DNA from: Escherichia phage MirsaeidiM_Esher4
Strand: one strand, 5' to 3'
Sequence record: PQ579973.1
Length of the DNA: 44,409 bases
Positions 1 through 44,409 of the stretch are shown here, piece after piece. Under the pieces are notes generated by a model that was not told where the DNA came from, made no database searches, and saw only the letters and a program-made list of their open reading frames with translations. Position 1 is the stretch's first letter, and the number at the start of each line of letters is the position of its first letter. The position numbers and the translations under genes were made by a program.

Positions 1-55
1 AAAAACAAAAGGCCTGCGTACAGAGATGTAACTGTGTGGCATGGGTGGCAAAGGT
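1..55. repeat. Terminal direct repeat; identical to 44355..44409 (circular wrap or terminal redundancy)
   Basis: Bases 1-55 match bases 44355-44409 exactly on direct comparison; a reading frame continues across the junction. Confidence 0.9.
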
Positions 56-5421: not shown

Positions 5422-5975
5422 TGGCTAAGGTAATTATTCTTAATGGTCCTGCGGGCTGCGGGAAAGACACACTTGCTAGGGCGCTGGTAGAAATGGGCTT
5501 TGCGAAGGGTGTCGCCAGTTTCAAGAATCCGATGTTCAATATTGCTATGGCCGCGTTAGGCCGGGATGCTTACCGCGAGTTTCTCGACGGCTACGACGAC
5601 CGGGCGCGGAAAGAAAAGCCAGAGGGTTTCCTTAACGGGTTGTCTCGGCGTCAGTTCATGATTGCCATTTCCGAGCAATTCATTAAACCGGTATTCGGTG
5701 ATGATTATTTCGGTAAGTATCTTGCCGGAAACTTGCCCGACGGCGACGAAGTTTTTGTGGTGTCTGATGGCGGGTTCGCCAGCGAAGTAACCCCTATCGT
5801 TGCCGCGGGGCATGATGTGAGAATCGTCCGCTTGCACAGAGACGGCCATACGTTTGAAGGGGACAGCCGCGGTTACCTGTACGATATTGATGGTGTAAAA
5901 GATTATGACACCTACATCATACCGGGTTACGTTAAATCGAACGCTATAGGCATTGCTTTAAGATTAGGTTTGTAA
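5421..5975 (+). CDS. P-loop kinase, dNMP kinase-like
   Basis: Walker A GPAGCGKDT with GKDT signature and overall resemblance to phage deoxynucleoside monophosphate kinases; start overlaps upstream stop. Confidence 0.6.
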   Translation: MAKVIILNGPAGCGKDTLARALVEMGFAKGVASFKNPMFNIAMAALGRDAYREFLDGYDDRARKEKPEGFLNGLSRRQFMIAISEQFIKPVFGDDYFGKYLAGNLPDGDEVFVVSDGGFASEVTPIVAAGHDVRIVRLHRDGHTFEGDSRGYLYDIDGVKDYDTYIIPGYVKSNAIGIALRLGL

Positions 5976-13779: not shown

Positions 13780-13955
13780 AATCTCAGTAAACCAGTTACT
13801 TTTTACACAAGCAATAGAGTATGGCCCTTCCGAACGCGTCAGCGTAACTACACTCAGGACTTACGTCCCGCTCCGTTACCTGCCCGCGCCGCGGTCGCTT
13901 GTTCATACTTCACAAGCTCAGGTGGAGCTTAGCACATTTTTGGTGAAAAGTCAAC
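13780..13955 (-). promoter_or_regulatory. Paralogous non-coding module, copy A (promoter TTGACT-N17-TAAGCT plus conserved hairpins; candidate small RNA or antitermination element)
   Basis: About 80 percent identical to 24977..25151 apart from a variable hairpin; no conserved ORF in any frame; 16-bp perfect palindrome AACTATTCGAATAGTT (13953-13968) overlaps the -35. Confidence 0.5.
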
Positions 13956-24069: not shown

Positions 24070-24217
24070 ACCTCACACCTCTTTCAATCAAGGATTGCAC
24101 ACCAGCTTTCCACGCCCGCCACGCGAGACGCGTCTTAACGTTCAGGTACTCTTTCTTTGAACCCTTGTTAACCGGCAGACCCTCGACCACAGCCCACCGT
24201 TCAAATGCTTCTCTCAT
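24062..24217 (-). CDS. Small hypothetical protein (51 aa, below cutoff)
   Basis: ATGA-coupled at both ends. Confidence 0.3.
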   Translation of the reverse strand: MREAFERWAVVEGLPVNKGSKKEYLNVKTRLAWRAWKAGVQSLIERGVRYG

Positions 24218-24402
24218 ACCAGAACCTCACATTCATCCCGATACACGAACAATAACGACCCTTTGTACTCAATCATAAAACCATAATGGTTGATGCTGAA
24301 CGCCGGAAAAACATCACCTACCGAGATACCGAAATCTATAAGCCTGCGGTCAGTTATACGGACAAGCCTGCGGTCAGTTATACGGATTCGCATTAACGGC
24401 AA
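24214..24402 (-). CDS. Hypothetical protein containing 24-bp tandem duplication
   Basis: Track ORF; tandem repeat encodes RITDRRLV twice. Confidence 0.3.
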   Translation of the reverse strand: MPLMRIRITDRRLVRITDRRLIDFGISVGDVFPAFSINHYGFMIEYKGSLLFVYRDECEVLV

Positions 24403-24976: not shown

Positions 24977-25151
24977 TCAGTAACTTAGATAATTAGACAG
25001 GAATTACAATAGACTATGGCCCTTCCGAATGCGCCAGCGAGACTCACTCCACACGTCGAGACGTGCTCGTTTCGCCTGCCGCGCACCGCGGTCGCTTGTT
25101 CATACTTCACAAGCTCAGGCTGAGCTTACCATATTTCTTAGTAAAAGTCAA
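24977..25151 (-). promoter_or_regulatory. Paralogous non-coding module, copy B (promoter TTGACT-N17-TAAGCT plus conserved hairpins; candidate small RNA or antitermination element)
   Basis: Paralog of 13780..13955; -35 and -10 at identical relative positions; followed on minus strand by hairpin GGTGCCGAAGGCACC (24921-24935) and U-rich tract. Confidence 0.5.
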
Positions 25152-25707: not shown

Positions 25708-25836
25708 ATGACGAAGTTAATAGTTCCACAGCTACGCCGCCAGAAACACGGCGCTGATTTCTTCGCACCGGTAAAGATGAACCGCGCAATGCGCCGTATG
25801 CAGGAAGCCTTAGAACGTGCGGAGAAAAAGAAATGA
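25708..25836 (+). CDS. Small basic hypothetical protein (42 aa, below cutoff)
   Basis: ATG 25708; stop overlaps primase start (ATGA). Confidence 0.3.
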   Translation: MTKLIVPQLRRQKHGADFFAPVKMNRAMRRMQEALERAEKKK

Positions 25837-28094
25837 ATATTGTTTTTGCAACGCTGCGTAACACATTCGATAAAAACCCTGTAGCGCGTGAAATGCCGCT
25901 GGAGCAGTTCGTAGAGTATGTCTGTGATACATCGAAGCGTTTATCCGTGGACCCGTCGTGGACTAAGGAAGAGTACGACGCCGCCAAGATTAAACAGAAA
26001 GCTATCGCACCCGTTGGTGGTCGCCGTAAGAACGCGATTCTGGAAGACAGTGTGGTTAAGTTCGACTTTGACCATCTCAACCGTACTCAGTACCGCAACC
26101 TGACACGCAAATTTAAGAATGCGCCGTTCTTCAACATTCTGCATACAACGGCGTCACACCGGCACGCGTGCAAAAACGGGGATTACGCCTTCCGCGTTCT
26201 GGTTCCGGCTCGCACGCCGTTTAACTCTAACGATGCGTGGATGGTGCAACGTGCTATTTGTGCCGAGTTAGAAATAGACGAAGCATTGCGCGACCACTGC
26301 ACGGAAGACGGCAATCGCCTTATCTACCTGCCGCATAAAGAGTCAAAGATAACGGTTACAGAAGGGCGGGTTATCCGTGCTGAGCGGTACATCAAGAAAG
26401 CCGAAGAGATGGGATTGCGTAAGCGTGAAGCTAAGACGCTTGCTGCCGATGAGCACGGGCTTAACGCAGATATAGCCCATTTCTGCGAAGCTGAGTTAGG
26501 TCTTGACGCTCTATCTTCCGGCCGCGGGTACGAAGTACCATGTCCGAACGAACACCTGCACACCGGAAAAGGTTCCACCAGCATTATGCTTGACGGTAAA
26601 GAAGTGCGCTTCGTGTGCCAGCACACAAACAACGGCGCTTGCACTGAACTTAACCGTCGACAACATTTGGCCTTGCGTATGTGCGGGCTGCCAGACGAGC
26701 TTAACGTAGACAAGCAACCTATCAGTATTAACAGCATTCGTGCGGCTTTGCCGGATTTACCGGACGAAGAGATTGAGGAATTGCACCGCACAGAGAACGA
26801 AGAGCCTGTAACTTGCACTCTGGAAGACCTTGAAGACGAGCCGGAAGTAGAAAAAGAACCTGCTTACTCCGTCGTAGACGGCCTTATGCAGACTAATGAA
26901 TCCTTCTACATTTGCGCAAAGTCCCACACTGGTAAGTCAACATTTAGTATGGCGATTGACGCCGCTATTGCCGCTGAAAAAAGATATGCGTTCGGCGGGG
27001 CTGAGGTCGCAGAAGGACATGCGTTCATTTTTGCGGGTGAAGGTGCGCAGTCGTTCGAGCGACATAAAAAGTCTTTGCAGATTGCCCTCGGGGATAGCCT
27101 GGACCGCTTGCACATTATCGATTGTGTCGCCGATGGGTGTAATTTACTTGATGAGGCGTGGCGCCGCCAGGCGGTGAGAATGATGCGCCGTGTTGCCGGT
27201 GAAGAGAAAATTGTAAAGGTTACGTTTGATACCCTACAAACTTGCATACCGGGCTTCGACGAAAACGATAACAGGTCGATGAAAGAAGCGGCGCAGGCGC
27301 TTAACGAAATAGCGGCAACGCTTAACGCTGCGGTCGGCGCTATGGTGCACCCGACTAAAAACATCGACGAAACTGTGCCGTCTGAAAACGGCATGATGCC
27401 GAAGGGTGGAAGTGATTTTCACAACTCCATCGATAACGGGATGTTCCTGCATAAACCAGACAACGACAATAACTTAGAGATAAACCTGTATCACATAAAG
27501 AACCGAAATGGAGAACGGCAGAAAGCCAGAGGATTCGTAATACAGAAGATTAAGATAGCGGAGCCGCCGGAAAAGAAAGAACCAACTCACAACTTCATGG
27601 GGCTTCCGGAAGGGTATAGCAGTGATGATGTGCGCGATTTTGACGCGGGAAATCCGCATATTGATGTCTTTGTCAACTTCAACGCCTTCTCTGTCTTTGT
27701 GAAGAAAGTAGAAGGTATGACTGACGAACAGAAGGAAGCCGTTAAAGAAAAGGTAGGCCAGTTCGAGAAACTGGATTCCAAAGAGGCTACGGTTATTTAC
27801 GCATTAGGTAAATTGCAGGAGCAAGGCGACGACAAGCGAGGGTTCTCTATGTCAGCTATCGTCAAAGCGGCGAAAGAAGATAGTTACGGCGTACCGATTA
27901 ACGCTAATAACGACCTTCGAAAGAAACTGGAAGAGATGCACGAGGCGGGGGTTATCGTCTCTGGGCTGGATAACAACAACAGGCCCATCCCTAAGCAATA
28001 CAGGTTGCCGTGGGGTATAAACGACAACAAAATTCCTAAGACAATATACGAACCGAATGAAATGCTGACAGTGACAGAGGAGGATTTGGAATAG
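25833..28094 (+). CDS. Primase/helicase-like replication protein (zinc-binding region plus RecA/DnaB-like P-loop ATPase)
   Basis: Cys/His cluster CPNEHLHTGKG...CQHTNNGAC; Walker A SHTGKSTFSMAIDAA; 753 aa. Confidence 0.65.
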   Translation: MNIVFATLRNTFDKNPVAREMPLEQFVEYVCDTSKRLSVDPSWTKEEYDAAKIKQKAIAPVGGRRKNAILEDSVVKFDFDHLNRTQYRNLTRKFKNAPFFNILHTTASHRHACKNGDYAFRVLVPARTPFNSNDAWMVQRAICAELEIDEALRDHCTEDGNRLIYLPHKESKITVTEGRVIRAERYIKKAEEMGLRKREAKTLAADEHGLNADIAHFCEAELGLDALSSGRGYEVPCPNEHLHTGKGSTSIMLDGKEVRFVCQHTNNGACTELNRRQHLALRMCGLPDELNVDKQPISINSIRAALPDLPDEEIEELHRTENEEPVTCTLEDLEDEPEVEKEPAYSVVDGLMQTNESFYICAKSHTGKSTFSMAIDAAIAAEKRYAFGGAEVAEGHAFIFAGEGAQSFERHKKSLQIALGDSLDRLHIIDCVADGCNLLDEAWRRQAVRMMRRVAGEEKIVKVTFDTLQTCIPGFDENDNRSMKEAAQALNEIAATLNAAVGAMVHPTKNIDETVPSENGMMPKGGSDFHNSIDNGMFLHKPDNDNNLEINLYHIKNRNGERQKARGFVIQKIKIAEPPEKKEPTHNFMGLPEGYSSDDVRDFDAGNPHIDVFVNFNAFSVFVKKVEGMTDEQKEAVKEKVGQFEKLDSKEATVIYALGKLQEQGDDKRGFSMSAIVKAAKEDSYGVPINANNDLRKKLEEMHEAGVIVSGLDNNNRPIPKQYRLPWGINDNKIPKTIYEPNEMLTVTEEDLE

Positions 28095-28103
28095 GTAAAA
28101 ATA

Positions 28104-28122
28104 AAGGGGCGTTAAGCCCCTT
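28104..28122. terminator. Bidirectional terminator hairpin
   Basis: AGGGGC-GTTAA-GCCCCT between convergent primase and repressor genes. Confidence 0.5.
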
Positions 28123-28354: not shown

Positions 28355-28420
28355 GTGAATAGTACCATATTAATTATTTTAGAAAAGCCCATTGACAAGT
28401 GAATAGTTCGCTATTATAGT
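28355..28420. promoter_or_regulatory. Divergent promoter region with two operator copies (TTGACA-N17-TATAGT rightward; leftward regulator promoter)
   Basis: Operators GTGAATAGTACCATATTAAT (28355-28374) and GTGAATAGTTCGCTATTATAG (28399-28419); TTGACA at 28392-28397. Confidence 0.55.
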
Positions 28421-28451
28421 TAGCCCATACCAAACGAGAGGAGAGAAACAA

Positions 28452-29016: not shown

Positions 29017-29289
29017 ATGATTTACCAACTATACCGCGCCGTTGACCGGCGGGATACCACAGAGGCGCTATGGTTATTGCGTGCGCCGTCCGGTGCACAC
29101 CAGATGGAAGAGATGGCGTACTTAGGCAAAGTACCGCTGTCTAAAGATATAGGCCGTCACGTGTCGCAGATTAAGCGCACGACATTCGCCAAGCCTGACT
29201 TTTATGTCTTTGAGTCGATGTACAGCTGGGCTATGCACTGCGACCATAAGACACGACATTTAATTGACCAGTGGGAGATCAGGGTATGA
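29017..29289 (+). CDS. Hypothetical protein
   Basis: Track ORF; ATGA-coupled to next gene. Confidence 0.4.
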   Translation: MIYQLYRAVDRRDTTEALWLLRAPSGAHQMEEMAYLGKVPLSKDIGRHVSQIKRTTFAKPDFYVFESMYSWAMHCDHKTRHLIDQWEIRV

Positions 29290-30536
29290 TTTTAAAGGAA
29301 CGCGGCGGCAATAACGATGTGCACGCCTTACTGTCGCCGTCTGGCGCTAAAAAGTGGCTGGCGTGCAGTGCATCACTGGCCTGTGAGAAAGATATTCCCA
29401 ACACGTCTGGTAAAGCCGCCGTTACAGGGACTGCATGCCACACCATAGCGGAGATGCACCTTAACCAGTACATCAAAGGCACTGCTCTGCCATTAGAGCG
29501 TGAAGTTGGCGCTTATGTGCTGGATGAAGGTAAAGGCCAGATTAAGGCGCTAATCAGCCCAATGAAAGGCGCGGTACTGATTACGGCGGACATGATTGAG
29601 CAGGTGCGCAAGTACACCGACTACTGCAAAGCGATTATCGACGTAGCGACTTACGCTAAGCTGGAAATGCGCGTCAATCTTACTGAGGTGTTGCACCCAG
29701 GCTACGAAGGCGTTGAAACGTTCGGAACTGCTGACCTTGTTGCCGTACAGGAACTGGCAAACACCGACGAGCACATGCTCATTATTGGTGACCTGAAAAC
29801 AGGACGGCATCGCGTCGAAGCGAAAGAAAACAAGCAGCTTATGCTTTACGCTCTCGGTGTTTATCGCCGACTCAAGAGACGTTATAACATCACAGTAGCG
29901 CGCCTGGTCATCTTCCAGCCGTACGCGGGGGGTGCGTCGGAGTGGGATATCTCGGTCGAAGGTCTGGAACTGTTCGCTAAGTTCGCACAGAAACGGGCAC
30001 TGTTAGCGCTTGATGCTTATTTCCGTGGAAAGAAGAACCTGAAAGCGTCGGACTTTAAACCGTCGGTCGATGGTTGCCAGTGGTGCCGGTTCTCTGAACA
30101 GTGTGCCGCGCGTACAAAGACGGTTAATTCTGTACTGGCGGAAGAACTTGAAGACGACTTTGTGCTGGAACTGACGACGGAGCAACTCGTAGTTGAGTAT
30201 GAGAAGTTGCCGCTGTTACGCCAGCACATCGACAAGGTTGAGAAAGCGATGACCGCCGCATTGCATTCCGGTAAGAAAGTGCCGGGTTACAAGCTGGTTG
30301 AAGGCCGCCAGGGTAATCGTGCGTGGAAAGATGCCGATGCGATTGAAGTGTCACACGGCGACATTCTCAAAAAAGAGGTATTGATGACCCCTACGGAGGC
30401 AGCAAAAGTTCTTTCGGCGGATGAGATGGCAGCGCTTGAGCCGTTTATTACCCGTAAGCCAGGCGCACCATGTGTCGCAACGGCAGACGACAAACGTCCT
30501 GAGTGGAATCAGGTATCAGAGGAGGATTTGGAATGA
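29286..30536 (+). CDS. PD-(D/E)xK nuclease, Cas4/RecB-like (DUF2800-type)
   Basis: Motifs IGDLKTG, EAKENKQLMLYALG (ExK, QxxxY), C-terminal CQWCRFSEQC plus N-terminal Cys; start ATG 29286 with GGGAGA RBS. Confidence 0.7.
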   Translation: MILKERGGNNDVHALLSPSGAKKWLACSASLACEKDIPNTSGKAAVTGTACHTIAEMHLNQYIKGTALPLEREVGAYVLDEGKGQIKALISPMKGAVLITADMIEQVRKYTDYCKAIIDVATYAKLEMRVNLTEVLHPGYEGVETFGTADLVAVQELANTDEHMLIIGDLKTGRHRVEAKENKQLMLYALGVYRRLKRRYNITVARLVIFQPYAGGASEWDISVEGLELFAKFAQKRALLALDAYFRGKKNLKASDFKPSVDGCQWCRFSEQCAARTKTVNSVLAEELEDDFVLELTTEQLVVEYEKLPLLRQHIDKVEKAMTAALHSGKKVPGYKLVEGRQGNRAWKDADAIEVSHGDILKKEVLMTPTEAAKVLSADEMAALEPFITRKPGAPCVATADDKRPEWNQVSEEDLE

Positions 30537-31033
30537 GTTTAGTTCGGGAGCGTTTCATTTATGAAAACGGGAAACTAATCTATCGCCACAATACAAAAAG
30601 AATGTTAGCTGGTCAGGAGGCGGGAAGCCTCCACCATTCAGGGTATGTGCAGATATACATTAATTGTAAGTCCTACCAAAGAAGCCGTTTAATATGGGGG
30701 TACCACAACGGCCCTATACCTGAAGGGTTTGAGGTGGACCATATAAATGCGATAAGAAATGATGACAGGATAGAGAATCTCCAGTTAATCGCTCATAGCG
30801 ATAATGTGGCTAAAGGCGGCATTCAAACCGGAAGAAGTCATAACAAAAGCGGGTACACTGGCGTGTTCTGGCGCAAAAGCCACGGTAAATGGCAGGCTGG
30901 GATTACCGTAAACGGGCGATATCGTTACCTTGGACTATTCGAAACTCCTGAACAGGCTAACGTGGCAAGAAAGAATTTTGAAAGTAATTTGCTAAAAGAA
31001 GTTGACTACCGAATAGCGAACTATTATAGTTAA
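30533..31033 (+). CDS. HNH homing endonuclease with AP2 DNA-binding domain
   Basis: HNH motif GYHNGPIPEGFEVDHINAIRNDDRIENLQLIAHSDN; AP2-like SGYTGVFWRKSHGKWQAGITVNGRYRYLGLFETPEQA; AT-rich; start moved to ATG 30533. Confidence 0.8.
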   Translation: MSLVRERFIYENGKLIYRHNTKRMLAGQEAGSLHHSGYVQIYINCKSYQRSRLIWGYHNGPIPEGFEVDHINAIRNDDRIENLQLIAHSDNVAKGGIQTGRSHNKSGYTGVFWRKSHGKWQAGITVNGRYRYLGLFETPEQANVARKNFESNLLKEVDYRIANYYS

Positions 31034-31092: not shown

Positions 31093-31719
31093 GTGGGACT
31101 GAAATTAAATCTGCGTAAAGTAAACACTGCATGGGTTAACGTATTCGAACGCGAAAAAGACCGTGAAAACGATGATGGCTCAATCACTAAAGGCCAGTAC
31201 AGCGCGACTATCATCCTGCCGTCTGACCACGCACAAATCGACGCGCTCTACGACACCGTTTACGCTGTGGTTGAAGAAGCGTTGGGCGCAGCTGCCGCTG
31301 AGAAGTGGATGAAGTCCAACTACGGCGAAGGTAAGCACATGGATAAATGTGCGATTAAAGACATTGCCGAGCGCGACAATCCGTTTGAAGACTTCCCGGA
31401 AGGCTTCTACTTCAAGGCGAAGGCACAGAAACAGCCACTGATTGTAACCTCTAAAAAAGGCGAGACTCAGGTAGAACAGGACTTCAATGTAGACGGCGAA
31501 CAGATTGAAGGTGAACAGGTTTACAGCGGCTGCGTCGCTAACGTAAGCGTTGAAATCTGGTTCAGCCAGAAATACAAAGTCCTCGGCGTTAACCTGCTGG
31601 CTATTAAATACGTTGGTGAAGGTAAAGCGTTTGGCGGTTCTAAAGTAGCCGCAAGCGTCGATGACCTTGAAGACGATGAAGAGGATGAAGCACCGCGCCG
31701 CGAACGTCGTCGCCGTTAA
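31093..31719 (+). CDS. DUF2815-like putative single-strand DNA-binding protein
   Basis: GTG start with GAGGG RBS; acidic stretch DDLEDDEEDE then basic tail; follows Cas4-like nuclease, a common pairing. Confidence 0.5.
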   Translation: MGLKLNLRKVNTAWVNVFEREKDRENDDGSITKGQYSATIILPSDHAQIDALYDTVYAVVEEALGAAAAEKWMKSNYGEGKHMDKCAIKDIAERDNPFEDFPEGFYFKAKAQKQPLIVTSKKGETQVEQDFNVDGEQIEGEQVYSGCVANVSVEIWFSQKYKVLGVNLLAIKYVGEGKAFGGSKVAASVDDLEDDEEDEAPRRERRRR

Positions 31720-31778: not shown

Positions 31779-33959
31779 ATGAGTTACCTGTTCTTAGACT
31801 TTGAAACATTCTCCGAAGCCGATTTGAAGAAAGTCGGCTCCTACGCTTACGCCGAACATCCAACCACCGAAGTTCTAATCTGCACATATGCTTTTGACGA
31901 CGAGCCTGTGCAGGTATGGGATTGCACCAACGGCAGCGACATGCCGGGCGATTTGCACCGCGCGTTACGCCGTCTGGTGAAACCAAACAGCCGTATTAAG
32001 ATGGTGTGGCACAACGGCTCAATGTTCGACAGGCCCATCATGAAGCACTGCTGGGGTTTTGATATTCCCGTAAGCAACACCATTGATACGATGATTTGGG
32101 CGTTTCGTCACGCGCTGCCGGGTTCACTCGACGCATTGTGCGAAGTGCTTGGCGTGTCTGCAGACAACGCGAAAGACAAACGGGGCAAAGCGCTTATTCA
32201 GCGTTTCTCTAAACCGACGCCGAAGAACTACAAAATTCGCCGCTACACTGCTGAAACGCACCCGGATGAGTGGGCGCTGTTCATCAAGTACGCCGTTAGC
32301 GACATCACCGCGATGCGTGAAGTGTTCCATAAGTTGCCGCGTTGGGGTAACTCCGAGTTCGAAGACCGTGTACTGGAACTGGACCAGTTAATTAACGACC
32401 GCGGGTTTAGGGTCGACGTTGCGCTGGCGGAAGCCGCAATTGAAGCTGTGGAGAAACACAAGGCACAGTTACAGGAAGAAGCCCAACGTAAATACGGCGG
32501 CTCGCTTACCGGAAAGGACTTCCTTCCTATTCTGCGTGAACTCGCACCGGCGCACCGTATTCACAACGCACAGAAGTCTACGCTTAACGACCTGCTTGCT
32601 GACGATGATTTACCGGACGACGCCCGCACGATTATAGAAATGCGCCTCGGGGCGGCATCCACTGCGTCAACGAAATATAACCCGCTGCTGTTAGGTCGCT
32701 CGTCTGACGACCGCCGTCGCGGTTGCATCCAGTATGGTGGAGCTAAACGTACGTTACGATTTGCGGGTAAAGGCTTCCAGCCGCAGAACCTGGCGCGTGG
32801 GTACTATCACGATGATGAGCTGGATAAAGGTATTTCAGCATTACTTAAGGGCCGAGCACATCGCCGTTTTGATGTAGCCAAGCTAACGGCATCTACGGTT
32901 CGCAGCTGCATTATCCCGGAAGCCGGACATAAGTTTGTCGTTGCCGACTACTCGAACGTTGAAGGCCGCGGTTTGGCGTGGCTGGCTGGCGAAGAAACCG
33001 CGCTTGATACGTTCCGTGCCGGGCTGGATATTTACTGCGTAACCGCAGGCAAGATGTTCGGCATGGAGCCGGATTACATTAAGAAAGAACGTAAAGACTT
33101 ACGCCAGATTGGTAAGGCATGCGAACTTGGACTTGGCTACGCGGGTGGTGTCGGCGCATTCGTACAGTTCGCCAAGAACCTCGGCCTTGACCTTGTTGAT
33201 ATGACAAAAACAATGGACGGGACTTTCCCCGACCACATCTGGGCTGCTACCGCACGTGGATATGAGTGGGCGCGTATTCAGGAAGCCAAGCGACCACCAC
33301 GTCCAGGTGAAAATGATGACCGACCATCTTATATTCTTGATAAGAAAGTGTGGCGTACCTGCGACGCTATCAAGCGTATGTGGCGTGAGTCACACCCGGA
33401 AACAGTAGCTTTCTGGCGGGATATTGAAGACGCAGCTATGGCAGCTATCCGCAATCCGGGCAAAGAGTTCACCGCAGGTCCGCGCGGCGTTAAGTTTTCG
33501 CGTAACGTAGAAACAGACAACAACGGCAACAAAGTCGCTGGTTGGTGGTTGCGCATGACGCTGCCGTCAGGTCGCGTTATGTCTTATCCGGGTGTTGGGC
33601 TAAGCGTGTCGAAAGAGACAGACGAAGACGGGAAGGTGTCTACCAACGTGCGCATCAAGTACCAGGGCGAAAACCAGTTAACCCGTCAGTGGGGCTTCCA
33701 GTACACCTACTCTGGTAAACTGGTGGAAAACTGCACTCAGGCGCTGTGCCGTGATTTGTTGGCTAATGCACTGCTGAACGTCGAAGCAAACGGCTACCCG
33801 ATTGTGCTCCATGTTCACGATGAGATTATCTGCGAGACACCAGATTTACCAGAATACAATGTCGCAGAACTGGAACGATTGATGTGCGAATTACCAGAGT
33901 GGGCCGAGGGGTTCCCTCTTGTAGCAGAAGGCGCGGAGATGAAGCGTTATGCCAAGTAA
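31779..33959 (+). CDS. DNA polymerase, family A (3'-5' exonuclease plus polymerase domains)
   Basis: Exo motif FLDFETFS at N-terminus; polymerase motif HVHDEIICE near C-terminus; 726 aa. Confidence 0.9.
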   Translation: MSYLFLDFETFSEADLKKVGSYAYAEHPTTEVLICTYAFDDEPVQVWDCTNGSDMPGDLHRALRRLVKPNSRIKMVWHNGSMFDRPIMKHCWGFDIPVSNTIDTMIWAFRHALPGSLDALCEVLGVSADNAKDKRGKALIQRFSKPTPKNYKIRRYTAETHPDEWALFIKYAVSDITAMREVFHKLPRWGNSEFEDRVLELDQLINDRGFRVDVALAEAAIEAVEKHKAQLQEEAQRKYGGSLTGKDFLPILRELAPAHRIHNAQKSTLNDLLADDDLPDDARTIIEMRLGAASTASTKYNPLLLGRSSDDRRRGCIQYGGAKRTLRFAGKGFQPQNLARGYYHDDELDKGISALLKGRAHRRFDVAKLTASTVRSCIIPEAGHKFVVADYSNVEGRGLAWLAGEETALDTFRAGLDIYCVTAGKMFGMEPDYIKKERKDLRQIGKACELGLGYAGGVGAFVQFAKNLGLDLVDMTKTMDGTFPDHIWAATARGYEWARIQEAKRPPRPGENDDRPSYILDKKVWRTCDAIKRMWRESHPETVAFWRDIEDAAMAAIRNPGKEFTAGPRGVKFSRNVETDNNGNKVAGWWLRMTLPSGRVMSYPGVGLSVSKETDEDGKVSTNVRIKYQGENQLTRQWGFQYTYSGKLVENCTQALCRDLLANALLNVEANGYPIVLHVHDEIICETPDLPEYNVAELERLMCELPEWAEGFPLVAEGAEMKRYAK

Positions 33960-34315: not shown

Positions 34316-34596
34316 CTAAAGAGGGCCGCGTACAGAAATACGCAAAAGACCGATTCGAGGCCCTTGGCGGCCTCGTTCGCAAACTCTCCTACGAGGGGCG
34401 TTCCGGCGCCCCAGACCTGCTGGTAATTCTCCCCGGCGGCATAGTCTGGTTCGTCGAGGTTAAGAAAGACGAGAACACGAAGCCAGACCCGCACCAGCTA
34501 CGGGAACATGAGCGGATGCGTAAACGTGGTGCGAATGTTTTTGTCGTTGGTTCGTTTAAACAGGTTGACGACCTAATAGCTAGCTATTATAGTTAG
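34312..34596 (+). CDS. VRR-NUC domain nuclease
   Basis: Segment GAPDLLVILPGGIVWFVEVKK matches the D...E.K core of VRR-NUC; start moved to ATG 34312. Confidence 0.55.
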   Translation: MTKEGRVQKYAKDRFEALGGLVRKLSYEGRSGAPDLLVILPGGIVWFVEVKKDENTKPDPHQLREHERMRKRGANVFVVGSFKQVDDLIASYYS

Positions 34597-44141: not shown

Positions 44142-44409
44142 ATGATACCCACCGAAAAAGTAGCTAAGAGTATGTGGCTGCGTGCGAATTATCCCGCGAA
44201 CAAAAGCAGCAAAACTAGGCGCGCAACTATATGCGATTTTGGCATAAATGACGCCGATTATGTAGTTAGTCCTAAGATAAACGGCAACCGTGAGCCGTGT
44301 CCGGCGTACGCTACATGGCGAGGGATGATCCAACGTTGTACAGACACCGAGTATAAAAACAAAAGGCCTGCGTACAGAGATGTAACTGTGTGGCATGGGT
44401 GGCAAAGGT
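44142..44409 (+). CDS. AP2-domain putative homing-endonuclease-like protein, N-terminal part (continues at 1..438)
   Basis: ATG 44142 with TAGGAG RBS; frame runs into the terminal repeat in phase with ORF 34..438; combined product about 216 aa. Confidence 0.6.
   Translation, partial: MIPTEKVAKSMWLRANYPANKSSKTRRATICDFGINDADYVVSPKINGNREPCPAYATWRGMIQRCTDTEYKNKRPAYRDVTVWHGWQR
44355..44409. repeat. Terminal direct repeat (copy of 1..55)
   Basis: Exact 55-bp identity with window start. Confidence 0.9.

What the first reader, a model, noticed from the sequence alone, without database searches (positions are those of the whole stretch)
28074..28091. Identical 18-nt 3' ends and shared EEDLE C-termini on the primase/helicase and the Cas4-like nuclease
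CAGAGGAGGATTTGGAAT occurs at 28074-28091 and again at 30517-30534, so both proteins end in the same acidic tail (TEEDLE and SEEDLE). The repeat contains a GAGGAGGA Shine-Dalgarno-like sequence: at 30517 it drives the overlapping HNH gene start, while at 28074 it is followed by a terminator. The shared tail could be a docking motif for a common partner such as the SSB-like protein or polymerase, or the repeat could be a recombination scar marking module boundaries.
Basis: seen in the sequence. Interest (0 to 1): 0.4.

Follow-up and report, generated by a model that had tools for sequence, protein, structure and literature searches.

The report
Shared docking tail on replication proteins
Three DNA-replication proteins of this E. 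coli phage carry the same short acidic peptide in their C-terminal tails (at the very end of two, near the end of the third); it is conserved and co-evolving and most likely plugs them into one common partner, while the identical 18-base DNA repeat is only a by-product of that peptide plus a ribosome-binding site.

Summary
It encodes the last residues of the primase-helicase (..VTEEDLE) and of the DUF2800/Cas4-like nuclease (..VSEEDLE).

The meaningful unit is the peptide, not the DNA. In 74 related loci and six distant annotated phages, both proteins keep a clade-specific acidic, hydrophobic-anchored C-terminal motif. Examples are TEEDLE/SEEDLE, TEGDLE/TEDDLE, SDEDLNS/SDEDLS, TDDDLKD/TDEDLSNE and ..DDDL/..EDDL. 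It is written with different codons, and the gp2.5-type SSB carries the same motif in its tail (here SVDDLED). Same-phage tails match better than different-phage tails (permutation p<0.001 and p=0.003). This parallels the T7 gp4 and gp2.5 tails, with a nuclease added.

The exact nucleotide identity is sporadic: at least 18 nt in 4 of 48 Guernseyvirinae-like loci. In the nuclease gene, GAGGAGGA..GAATGA appears only where a downstream ORF starts at that ATG (26/26 versus 0/26). Here that ORF is an HNH endonuclease.

The recombination-scar and duplicated-flank ideas are not supported. The receptor (DNA polymerase, or the SSB's ssDNA groove) is inferred, not shown. I rate this a new variant of a known kind, of moderate interest.

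The parts
25833..28094 (+). Replicative primase-helicase gene (753 aa)
   Evidence: ORF. Pfam AAA_25 at residues 334-510. PHROG 3228 'replicative helicase-primase', E=3e-297.
28059..28091 (+). Codons for the primase-helicase C-terminal tail EMLTVTEEDLE (core TEEDLE = 28074-28091)
   Evidence: The tail is kept in every clade. It is kept at the nucleotide level across Kagunavirus primase alleles that are only 32-61% identical overall.
28075..28092 (+). 18-mer copy 1, CAGAGGAGGATTTGGAAT; ends in the T of the TAG stop
28103..28122 (.). G+C-rich hairpin between the convergent primase-helicase and HTH-repressor genes. It scores as a terminator only for the minus strand.
   Evidence: sequence.
29286..30536 (+). 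DUF2800 / PD-(D/E)XK Cas4-like nuclease gene (416 aa from ATG 29286; a GTG at 29271 is an alternative start)
   Evidence: Pfam DUF2800 E=9e-68 and PDDEXK_1. PHROG 69 'exonuclease'. Conserved Cys C27, C264, C267, C273. AF2 model with mean pLDDT 93, whose fold matches AdnAB/AddAB nuclease domains, MGME1, Dna2, Exo5 and Cas4.
30501..30533 (+). Codons for the nuclease C-terminal tail EWNQVSEEDLE (core SEEDLE = 30516-30533). It lies beyond the end of the Pfam DUF2800 profile.
   Evidence: the profile is matched 1-368/368 and ends at residue 410 of 421. Conservation shown.
30517..30534 (+). 18-mer copy 2. It contains GGAGG (30521-30525) 7 nt before the HNH ATG (30533-35), which overlaps the nuclease TGA (30534-36).
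30533..31033 (+). Free-standing HNH endonuclease gene (166 aa, HNH_3 + AP2), inserted between the nuclease stop and the SSB promoter. Its last codons read through the promoter.
   Evidence: No DNA match in the phage collection. The best protein match is 66% identical, at the same site in FSL SP-031.
31002..31030 (+). Sigma-70-like promoter (TTGACT-17-TATAGT) of the SSB gene; a member of a 3-copy 45-nt element
   Evidence: In HNH-free relatives it directly follows the nuclease TAA.
31093..31719 (+). gp2.5-type (DUF2815/Enc34-type) ssDNA-binding protein gene (208 aa)
   Evidence: Pfam PF10991 E=7e-16. PHROG 112 'Gp2.5-like ssDNA binding and annealing protein'. PDB 4JG2 match.
31654..31674 (+). 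Third copy of the peptide motif, S-V-D-D-L-E-D, just after the SSB OB core. It is followed by DEEDE and a basic PRRERRRR end.
   Evidence: D191, L192, D194, D195 invariant across seven diverse SSBs. The codons differ from the other two copies.
31779..33959 (+). Family-A DNA polymerase gene (726 aa): the conserved module member that never carries the tail, hence a candidate receptor (inferred)
   Evidence: The C-terminus ..GFPLVAEGAEMKRYAK is conserved and without the motif in all clades.

Best explanation
The shared sequence is a short C-terminal peptide motif: an [ST], then two mostly acidic residues, then D-L, then 0-3 residues to the C-terminus. Here it reads [ST]EEDLE. The primase-helicase and the Cas4-like DUF2800 nuclease both carry it, and it copies a motif in the tail of the phage's own gp2.5-type SSB (SVDDLED).

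Most likely it is a docking peptide, an SSB-tail mimic. It would let all three proteins bind, and compete for, one phage-encoded receptor at the replication fork, as the acidic C-tails of T7 gp4 and gp2.5 do. The best receptor candidates are basic surfaces on the family-A DNA polymerase, or the ssDNA-binding groove of the SSB itself.

The 18-nt DNA identity is secondary. The peptide can be written as GAG GAG GAT TTG GAA TGA, which at the same time supplies a strong Shine-Dalgarno sequence and an ATG for a translationally coupled downstream gene. The nuclease gene uses that spelling whenever an accessory ORF (here the HNH endonuclease) is attached. The primase gene mostly uses it anyway.

Shown: the repeat, the conservation and co-variation of the peptide in three proteins, the codon divergence, and the SD/ORF association. 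Inferred: that the motif binds a partner, and which partner.
For: (1) Conservation. In 74 IMG/VR loci (nuclease 99-42% identical), both proteins end in the motif in every clade, and it changes in step:
- Kagunavirus: VTEEDLE / V[ST]EEDLE
- Jersey-like: TTEGDLE / VTEDDLE(A)
- Klebsiella VLCpiS11a-like: ASDEDLNS / ASDEDLS
- Dhillonvirus: ATDDDLKD / ATDEDLSNE, with the primase gene on the opposite strand
- L074: ATDDDLAD / ATDEDLE
. Cornellvirus has SEEDDLEN / ATDSDLDD.

(2) The SSB has the motif in the same clade-specific form: ASVDDLED, ANDDDLDD, CSDEDLGD, ATDDDLGD.

(3) The pattern extends to very distant duf2800-gp2.5-polA modules:
- Staphylococcus SMSAP5: nuclease AEDDFDKL / SSB AEDDFDEL
- Bordetella BPP-1: DDFADV..EDLV / DEFDDI..ADLV
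- Pseudomonas SS2019XI: primase ..EDDDL / nuclease DDVFDDL..EDDL / SSB EDVWDEL..DDDL
- Klebsiella Seifer: primase EWDDEV / nuclease DDDDDV / SSB AWDDDE..EDDDV / helicase LWDDEDD
- Bacteroides BF486P2: SSB FYDDLA / primase IYEDDLM
.

(4) Same-phage tails are more similar than different-phage tails: nuclease-SSB permutation p<0.001, nuclease-primase p=0.003, primase-SSB p=0.045.

(5) The motifs are spelled with different synonymous codons. Exact nucleotide identity between the two 3' ends ranges from 4 to 21 nt, and is at least 18 nt in only 4 of 48 Guernseyvirinae-like loci. Selection therefore acts on the peptide.

(6) Kagunavirus primase-helicase alleles are only 32-61% identical overall, yet all keep the last ~20 residues.

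(7) Among 126 full-length 50%-cluster representatives of DUF2800 with the DxR anchor, 108 have an acidic last 12 residues and 93 an acidic-hydrophobic motif there.

(8) The motif differs between phages of the same host: T7 ..DF, Kagunavirus EDLE and Dhillonvirus DDLKD on E. coli; Seifer WDDEV versus VLCpiS11a-like DEDLS on Klebsiella. This argues for a phage-encoded receptor.

(9) Precedent. T7 gp2.5 ends ..SWDEDD..DGDF and gp4 ends ..DWSNDTDF. The gp4 C-tails bind positive patches on T7 DNA polymerase (PMC8472574). The gp2.5 tail anchors to the polymerase front basic patch, and a DTDF peptide is seen bound in PDB 6P7E (PMC12339929). [quoted passage not shown]

(10) SD role. At the nuclease 3' end an SD-like core is present in 26/26 loci with an overlapping downstream ORF and in 0/26 without one. 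The downstream ORFs fall into roughly seven groups with dissimilar N-termini.
Against: No interaction has been measured or modelled.

The AF2 model of the nuclease gives the tail high confidence (residues 411-416 mean pLDDT 88, a short helix at 412-415). In the isolated protein it may therefore pack back onto the nuclease instead of being a free, disordered peptide.

In this clade the motif ends in Leu-Glu, not in the terminal aromatic residue that both T7 tails end in and that, from my memory of the T7 literature, is critical there. In the SSB it is internal and followed by a basic tail.

The T7 front basic patch cannot be mapped onto this polymerase; BLASTP finds no usable alignment.

Natural variants exist. 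K1H has SEEDSE, with Leu changed to Ser. K1ind1 lacks the nuclease C-end and the whole SSB gene. These are either tolerated losses or sequence errors.

Some distant modules share the motif only weakly (Streptococcus Javan458) or not on the primase (BPP-1). The clades in the permutation test are not phylogenetically independent.
Confidence: 0.6

Rival explanations
1. The tails act only in cis. Each is an autoinhibitory DNA mimic, or a structural element folding back onto its own protein's basic DNA-binding surface. They look alike because any such tail must be acidic with a hydrophobic anchor, not because they share a receptor.
For: The AF2 model of the nuclease places the last residues with pLDDT about 88 as a short helix, not as a disordered tail. 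All three carriers are DNA-binding proteins. The tails of T7 gp2.5 and DUF2815 proteins do occupy DNA-binding grooves (PMC5686142; PMC12339929 notes that the AF2-predicted gp2.5 has its tail in the positive groove).
Against: Generic acidity does not predict residue-level, clade-specific co-variation between proteins with unrelated folds, for example AEDDFDKL/AEDDFDEL, IYEDDLM/FYDDLA, EWDDEV/..EDDDV, ATDDDLKD/ATDEDLSNE. Very different primase-helicase alleles keep the same tail, although their own surfaces differ. Cis binding and trans docking are not exclusive; T7 gp2.5 does both.
Confidence: 0.2
2. The repeat is a DNA-level element: a recombination scar, a duplicated flank left by insertion of the HNH gene, a homing-endonuclease target, or a boundary sequence that promotes module exchange.
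For: Both copies sit at the junctions of variable cassettes. At least five unrelated ORFs follow the primase 3' end and roughly seven dissimilar groups follow the nuclease 3' end in relatives. A mosaic joint lies about 60 nt before the primase stop. Identical codons for the same peptide are unlikely by chance (about 0.014). Four relatives have 18-21 nt identity.
Against: The two copies do not flank the HNH gene; it lies downstream of the second copy. HNH-free relatives keep SEEDLE as AGT GAA GAA GAT TTG GAA. The 66% HNH homologue occupies the same site behind a different sequence. Distant clades keep the peptide with only 4-9 nt of identity and with the primase gene on the other strand. The SSB copy uses entirely different codons.
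Confidence: 0.07
3. The motif docks onto a host protein (for example host SSB partners, the clamp or RNA polymerase), or serves as a C-terminal degradation or localisation tag, and not as a link to a phage-encoded partner.
For: Short C-terminal acidic-hydrophobic peptides are the currency of the bacterial SSB interactome (E. coli SSB-Ct; PMC7913777). Nothing here measures binding, so a host receptor is not excluded.
Against: Phages of one host use different motifs: T7 ..DF, Kagunavirus ..EDLE and Dhillonvirus ..DDLKD on E. coli; Seifer ..WDDEV versus VLCpiS11a-like ..DEDLS on Klebsiella. The motif tracks the phage's own SSB tail. It lacks the C-terminal Pro-Phe that ends the E. coli SSB tail (from my own knowledge).
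Confidence: 0.08
4. Pure coincidence: two unrelated acidic C-termini that happen to match.
For: The motif is short (six residues), and acidic tails are common in DNA-binding proteins.
Against: Shuffles expect 0.03 matches and 3 of 200 simulations give any 18-mer repeat. A six-frame scan of the window for [STVA][DE][DEG]DL finds only four hits, two of them these C-termini. Conservation holds across all clades.
Confidence: 0.02

Closest known systems
Acidic C-terminal tails of bacteriophage T7 gp4 (helicase-primase) and gp2.5 (SSB) that dock on T7 DNA polymerase/thioredoxin
   Same: The cast is the same: a hexameric-type primase-helicase, a gp2.5-type SSB and a family-A polymerase. Both the helicase-primase and the SSB end in similar acidic peptides with a hydrophobic anchor (T7..SWDEDD..DGDF and ..DWSNDTDF). 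The tails bind basic patches on the polymerase (PMC8472574, PMC12339929), and the SSB tail also binds an SSB groove (PMC5686142).
   Different: Here the anchor is Asp-Leu(-Glu) and not a terminal Phe. The SSB copy is internal and followed by a basic RRERRRR end. A third enzyme, the Cas4-like DUF2800 nuclease, carries the tail, whereas the T7 exonuclease gp6 ends ..KEIYLWRP with no such tail. The polymerase is too diverged from T7 gp5 to map the patches. Binding is untested.
Bacterial SSB C-terminal tip (SSB-Ct, ..DDDIPF) as a hub peptide
   Same: A short acidic-hydrophobic C-terminal peptide is used as a common handle in DNA replication and repair.
   Different: In bacteria, one protein (SSB) carries the peptide and many partners read it (PMC7913777). 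Here several different enzymes carry copies of the SSB's peptide, which implies competition for one reader.
duf2800-gp2.5-polA gene module of phages (Steczkiewicz et al. 2021, PMC8093625)
   Same: The window has exactly this module: nuclease 29286-30536, SSB 31093-31719, polymerase 31779-33959.
   Different: That paper describes gene context only. A shared, co-varying C-terminal motif linking the module's proteins was not found in the literature searched.
Exonuclease-annealase pairs (lambda Exo-Red beta, RecE-RecT)
   Same: A PD-(D/E)XK exonuclease sits next to an ssDNA-binding/annealing protein with which it is expected to interact specifically. gp2.5-family proteins are classed as annealases (PMC8093625, PMC11611040).
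   Different: In lambda, the annealase's folded C-terminal domain binds Exo (PMC6393309). Here the candidate link is a linear tail on the nuclease that mimics the SSB's own tail.
Translational coupling through ATGA overlaps with the SD inside the upstream ORF, and free-standing HNH homing endonucleases in phage intergenic gaps
   Same: The nuclease tail codons supply GGAGG and the ATG for the HNH gene. The HNH gene fills the gap between the nuclease stop and the SSB promoter.
   Different: The same dual-use spelling also occurs at the primase-helicase end, where this genome has no downstream gene. The HNH gene has no close DNA relative in the phage collection.

Membership tests
T7-type acidic C-terminal docking tails of replisome proteins | Acidic peptide at the extreme C-terminus of the replicative helicase-primase | tested here: met
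   ..EMLTVTEEDLE-stop. It is kept in all clades whose primase-helicase is homologous to this one and in SS2019XI, Seifer and BF486P2, but is absent from the BPP-1 and Javan458 primases.
T7-type acidic C-terminal docking tails of replisome proteins | The same motif is present in the tail of a gp2.5-type SSB of the same phage | tested here: met
   The SSB is Pfam PF10991 / PHROG 112. SVDDLED lies at residues 188-194, and the clade-specific forms match those of the primase and nuclease.
T7-type acidic C-terminal docking tails of replisome proteins | C-terminal aromatic residue (Phe in T7 gp4 and gp2.5) as the anchor | tested here: not met
   This clade ends Asp-Leu-Glu. The anchor is Leu, and in other clades it is Phe, Trp, Val or Leu (versus T7).
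T7-type acidic C-terminal docking tails of replisome proteins | The tail is flexible or disordered, outside the folded domain | tested here: inconclusive
   The nuclease tail lies beyond the Pfam DUF2800 profile, but AF2 gives it pLDDT about 88 with a short helix. The primase and SSB tails were not modelled.
T7-type acidic C-terminal docking tails of replisome proteins | The tail binds basic patches of the cognate DNA polymerase | not testable with these tools
The T7 patch cannot be mapped by BLASTP.
duf2800-gp2.5-polA phage replication/recombination module | Adjacent genes for a DUF2800 nuclease, a DUF2815/gp2.5-like SSB and a family-A polymerase | tested here: met
   Gene order 29286-30536, 31093-31719, 31779-33959. 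The module is described in PMC8093625.
Cas4/RecB-like PD-(D/E)XK nucleases with a four-cysteine cluster | PD-(D/E)XK core plus conserved Cys (one N-terminal, three C-terminal), and a fold like AddB/Cas4 | tested here: met
   Pfam PDDEXK_1 and DUF2800. C27, C267 and C273 are invariant and C264 is at least 90% conserved. Foldseek hits to AdnAB, AddAB, MGME1, Dna2, Exo5 and Cas4 at E about 1e-5 to 1e-3. Metal-cluster binding itself is not testable here.
Duplicated flank / target-site duplication of an inserted mobile gene | The two repeat copies bracket the inserted element, and homologous insertions carry the same flanks | tested here: not met
   The HNH gene lies downstream of the second copy, not between the copies. 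The homologue in FSL SP-031 sits at the same site with a different flank sequence. HNH-free genomes keep the peptide.
Translationally coupled overlapping gene pair | An SD within the 3' end of the upstream ORF at 5-9 nt from a start codon that overlaps the stop (ATGA) | tested here: met
   At the second copy, GGAGG 30521-30525, ATG 30533 and TGA 30534, with the 26/26 versus 0/26 association. It is not met at the first copy in this genome (TAG, no ORF), but is met there in 14 relatives.

The most novel reading that the evidence does not exclude
Across the very widespread duf2800-gp2.5-polA replication module (phages of Enterobacteria, Pseudomonas, Bordetella, Staphylococcus and Bacteroides), the SSB's tail peptide works as a lineage-specific 'address code'. 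The primase-helicase, the Cas4-like nuclease and sometimes the SNF2-type helicase copy it, so that all compete for one receptor on the polymerase or the SSB.

This would make the Cas4-like nuclease a physical component of the replisome. It would explain how phages can swap in primase-helicase alleles that are only about 30% identical, provided the last ~20 residues are kept. It would also set a compatibility barrier between modules. In Guernseyvirinae, the same codons additionally act as a ready-made RBS and start 'landing pad' that captures accessory genes.
Probability: 0.45. Interest if true: 0.65.

Novelty: new variant of a known kind. Interest (0 to 1): 0.5.

Why it matters
If the tails are docking peptides, they give a simple, testable wiring diagram for a replisome type found in well over a thousand sequenced phages (1,486 records in the phage collection carry a DUF2800 homologue), about which almost nothing biochemical is known.

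The model predicts that a Cas4-like nuclease of unknown role travels with the fork. It offers an explanation for how replication genes can be exchanged between phages without breaking the machine. It also gives short peptides that could be used to pull down partners or to inhibit replication.

For annotation, it shows that the 18-nt repeat is not a mobile-element scar. It is a case of dual coding: protein tail plus RBS and start codon.

Tried and rejected
- The first homologue search for the nuclease returned only proteins at least 96% identical, so it was useless for diversity. It was replaced by the IMG/VR loci and the 50%-cluster representatives.
- The search for related loci with the 62-sequence alignment failed because no stretch was conserved enough.
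- The look-up of encoding contigs on a distant representative gave only a 2.6-kb contig. Annotated phage genomes were used instead.
- The HNH gene has no DNA match in the phage collection, so its origin could not be traced by DNA. A protein search found the 66% homologue at the same site.
- Mapping the T7 polymerase basic patch onto this polymerase by BLASTP gave no usable alignment.
- Two T7 papers (PMC6162179, PMC2538852) are not held.

Rejected on the evidence: chance, target-site duplication or HNH flank, and homing site.

Considered but not tested: a degron or localisation tag, and the 173-aa acidic protein (phrog_3127) as receptor. The latter is unlikely because it was not found in the annotated regions of the distant modules that still share the motif.
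Full report
**What the window is.** It is a complete Kagunavirus genome (Guernseyvirinae, K1G-like E. coli siphophage). The region 27400-31800 matches 445 phage records, the best at about 95% identity, and the two ends of the window are an identical 55-mer. The finding lies in the replication module:
- primase-helicase, 25833..28094 (Pfam AAA_25, PHROG 'replicative helicase-primase')
- a convergent HTH repressor gene
- two small ORFs
- a DUF2800/PD-(D/E)XK nuclease, 29286..30536
- an HNH endonuclease, 30533..31033
- a gp2.5-type (DUF2815) SSB, 31093..31719
- a family-A DNA polymerase, 31779..33959
.

**Observation.** CAGAGGAGGATTTGGAAT occurs exactly twice, at 28075-28092 and 30517-30534. No further copy exists at up to 3 mismatches, and shuffles expect 0.03. 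Only 3 of 200 Markov simulations of the window contain any exact 18-mer direct repeat. The two proteins end ..EMLTVTEEDLE and ..EWNQVSEEDLE. The HNH ATG (30533) overlaps the nuclease TGA as ATGA, with GGAGG 7 nt upstream. The hairpin after the first copy (28103-28122) has its T-run only on the minus strand, so it is primarily the terminator of the HTH gene.

**Peptide or DNA?** I fetched 74 IMG/VR loci encoding relatives of the nuclease (99% to 42% identity), located both genes by tblastn and read through to each stop. Every clade keeps an acidic motif ending in Asp-Leu plus 0-3 residues on both proteins, and the two tails change together:
- Kagunavirus: VTEEDLE / V[ST]EEDLE
- Jersey-like Salmonella phages: TTEGDLE / VTEDDLE(A)
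- Klebsiella VLCpiS11a-like phages: ASDEDLNS / ASDEDLS
- Dhillonvirus: ATDDDLKD / ATDEDLSNE, with the primase gene on the other strand
- L074: ATDDDLAD / ATDEDLE
(clade identities). Cornellvirus FSL SP-031 has ..TSEEDDLEN / ..ATDSDLDD.

The nucleotide spelling differs. The longest exact match between the two 3' ends is 4-9 nt in the distant clades and 5-21 nt within Guernseyvirinae, with at least 18 nt in only 4 of 48 loci. The conserved object is therefore the peptide. The exact 18-mer is an occasional outcome.

**Why identical codons here.** Given the same EEDLE, identical codons would be expected about 1.4% of the time, so something more is involved. At the nuclease 3' end two haplotypes exist:
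- ..AGT GAA GAA GAT TTR GAA TAA, followed directly by the SSB promoter
- ..ACA GAG GAG GAT TTR GAA TGA, followed by an ORF that starts at the ATG of GAATGA

The SD-like core is present in 26 of 26 loci with such an ORF and in 0 of 26 without. These loci are not phylogenetically independent, but the attached ORFs fall into roughly seven groups with dissimilar N-termini. The window carries the second haplotype with ACA changed to TCA, and its attached ORF is the HNH gene. The primase end mostly uses GAGGAGGATTTGGAA whether or not an ORF follows: 14 loci have one of five unrelated ORFs attached via GAATGA, and the rest have TAG or TAA. So the tail codons double as RBS and start codon, and both gene ends are hot spots for accessory genes.

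**HNH and 'scar' hypotheses.** The HNH gene has no DNA relative in the phage collection. Its nearest protein relative (66%) sits at the same place in FSL SP-031, between the nuclease stop and the SSB promoter, which it also reads into. The nuclease tail there is encoded by a different sequence. The two 18-mers do not bracket the HNH gene. A duplicated flank or insertion scar is therefore not supported.

What is true is that both copies lie at module edges. Kagunavirus primase-helicase alleles are 100, 61, 48 or 32% identical to the window's, yet they share the last ~20 codons, the hairpin and the HTH gene at the nucleotide level.

**A third carrier.** The SSB has the motif right after its OB core (..FGGSKVAASVDDLEDDEEDEAPRRERRRR). 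In each clade the motif takes that clade's form: ANDDDLDD, CSDEDLGD, ATDDDLGD. D191, L192, D194 and D195 are invariant in seven diverse SSBs. The polymerase never carries it. A six-frame scan of the window for [STVA][DE][DEG]DL gives only four hits, two of which are the C-termini in question.

**Generality.**
- All representatives of DUF2800 (50%-identity clusters) that are at least 42% identical end ..DxRPxW/Y..x-acidic-x-D-L-x(0-3).
- More distant ones end in DDFEVL-, DFEDL- or EDLI-type tails.
- Of 126 full-length representatives with the DxR anchor, 108 have an acidic last 12 residues and 93 an acidic-hydrophobic motif there.

In annotated phages with the same module the tails again match within each genome:
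- Staphylococcus SMSAP5: nuclease AEDDFDKL / SSB AEDDFDEL
- Bordetella BPP-1: DDFADV..EDLV / DEFDDI..ADLV
- Pseudomonas SS2019XI: primase ..EDDDL / nuclease DDVFDDL..EDDL / SSB EDVWDEL..DDDL
- Klebsiella Seifer: primase EWDDEV / nuclease DDDDDV / SSB AWDDDE..EDDDV / helicase LWDDEDD
- Bacteroides BF486P2: SSB FYDDLA / primase IYEDDLM

These use different synonymous codons. In Streptococcus Javan458 the resemblance is weak, and the BPP-1 and Javan458 primases lack the motif. A permutation test on 10-11 clades shows that same-phage tails are more alike than different-phage tails: nuclease-SSB p<0.001, nuclease-primase p=0.003, primase-SSB p=0.045.

**Mechanism.** The closest precedent is T7. gp2.5 ends ..SWDEDDEESEEADEDGDF and gp4 ends ..STDWSNDTDF. 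The gp4 tails bind positively charged patches on the polymerase (PMC8472574). The gp2.5 tail anchors to the polymerase front basic patch, and a DTDF peptide is seen on gp5 in PDB 6P7E (PMC12339929). [quoted passage not shown] The duf2800-gp2.5-polA module is described in PMC8093625.

By analogy, I infer that the motif is an SSB-tail-like docking peptide through which the primase-helicase and the nuclease reach a common phage-encoded receptor. The two candidates are the polymerase (the one conserved module member without the tail) and the SSB groove. A phage-encoded receptor is favoured because phages of the same host use different motifs. The T7 exonuclease gp6 has no such tail, so the tail on the Cas4-like nuclease is the new element.

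**Caveats.**
- The AF2 model of the nuclease (mean pLDDT 93) gives the tail high confidence (about 88, a short helix at 412-415). It may therefore fold back on the protein, and I could not inspect the coordinates.
- The fold matches AdnAB/AddAB/MGME1/Dna2/Cas4-type nucleases, and the four conserved Cys fit a Cas4-like cluster.
- The T7 basic patch cannot be mapped onto this polymerase.
- Natural variants exist: K1H has SEEDSE, and K1ind1 has a deletion joining nuclease residue 358 to polymerase residue 37.

**Verdict.** The DNA repeat itself is ordinary dual coding. The peptide is a conserved, co-evolving feature shared by three replication proteins, and I found no description of it for this module in the literature searched. 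It is a new variant of the T7-type acidic-tail principle.

Noticed in passing
window 1-55 and 44355-44409: The two ends of the window are an identical 55-mer. This is either terminal redundancy or the overlap of a circular assembly of a complete ~44.35-kb genome.
   Followed up: no
window 28378-28422, 30988-31032, 34551-34595: Three copies of a 45-nt promoter-like element (TTGAC-N17-TATAGT, 67-100% alike). They head the 173-aa acidic ORF, the SSB gene and a third unit, and probably form a co-regulated promoter set.
   Followed up: partly
window 13812-13954 and 25007-25151: A two-part direct repeat, 86-87% identical, that includes an exact 34-mer (13889 / 25086), 11.2 kb apart. Its function is unknown.
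   Followed up: no
window 24340-24386: An exact 23-nt tandem duplication separated by one base, inside a small minus-strand ORF (24214..24402). It gives the repeated peptide RITDRRLV/RITDRRLI.
   Followed up: no
window 30533-31033; L077 4501-4974: The HNH_3 + AP2 endonuclease ORF borrows the nuclease tail as RBS and start, and its last codons run through the SSB promoter (-35 TTGACT). A 66% homologue does the same in Cornellvirus FSL SP-031. No DNA-level relative exists in the phage collection.
   Followed up: partly
window 25833-28094 versus L003, L005, L015, L039: Kagunavirus genomes carry primase-helicase alleles that are 100, 61, 48 or 32% identical. In the 48% and 32% alleles only the helicase half (residues 347-753) aligns. 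All are joined about 60 nt before the stop to the same 3' end, hairpin and HTH gene, which is a sharp mosaic boundary.
   Followed up: partly
L040 (Escherichia phage K1ind1, GU196279) 5574-5576: Nuclease residue 358 is joined directly to polymerase residue 37. The nuclease C-end, the whole SSB gene and the polymerase N-terminus (including the first exonuclease motif) are missing. This is either a viable deletion mutant or an assembly error.
   Followed up: partly
window 31675-31716; L052, L060, L074 SSB genes: The SSB tails end in an acidic block followed by a basic PRRERRRR run. Dhillonvirus and VLCpiS11a-like SSBs carry two or three tandem acidic/basic modules, an unusual zwitterionic tail for an SSB.
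   Followed up: no
L003 (Escherichia phage K1H) nuclease 3' end: The otherwise invariant Leu of the tail is Ser (SEEDSE, TTG changed to TCG) in this isolate. Other relatives tolerate Gly, Ala or Arg at the second and third motif positions, or lack the final Glu.
   Followed up: no
window 26823-26839, 30141-30157, 31156-31172, 31660-31676, 31669-31685: A loose 17-nt family, GAAGACCTTGAAGACGA (E-D-L-E-D-like codons), recurs five times: once inside the primase-helicase, once inside the nuclease and three times inside the SSB gene. One copy lies in the primase-helicase interdomain linker (TLEDLEDEPE). These may be further weak copies of the motif.
   Followed up: no
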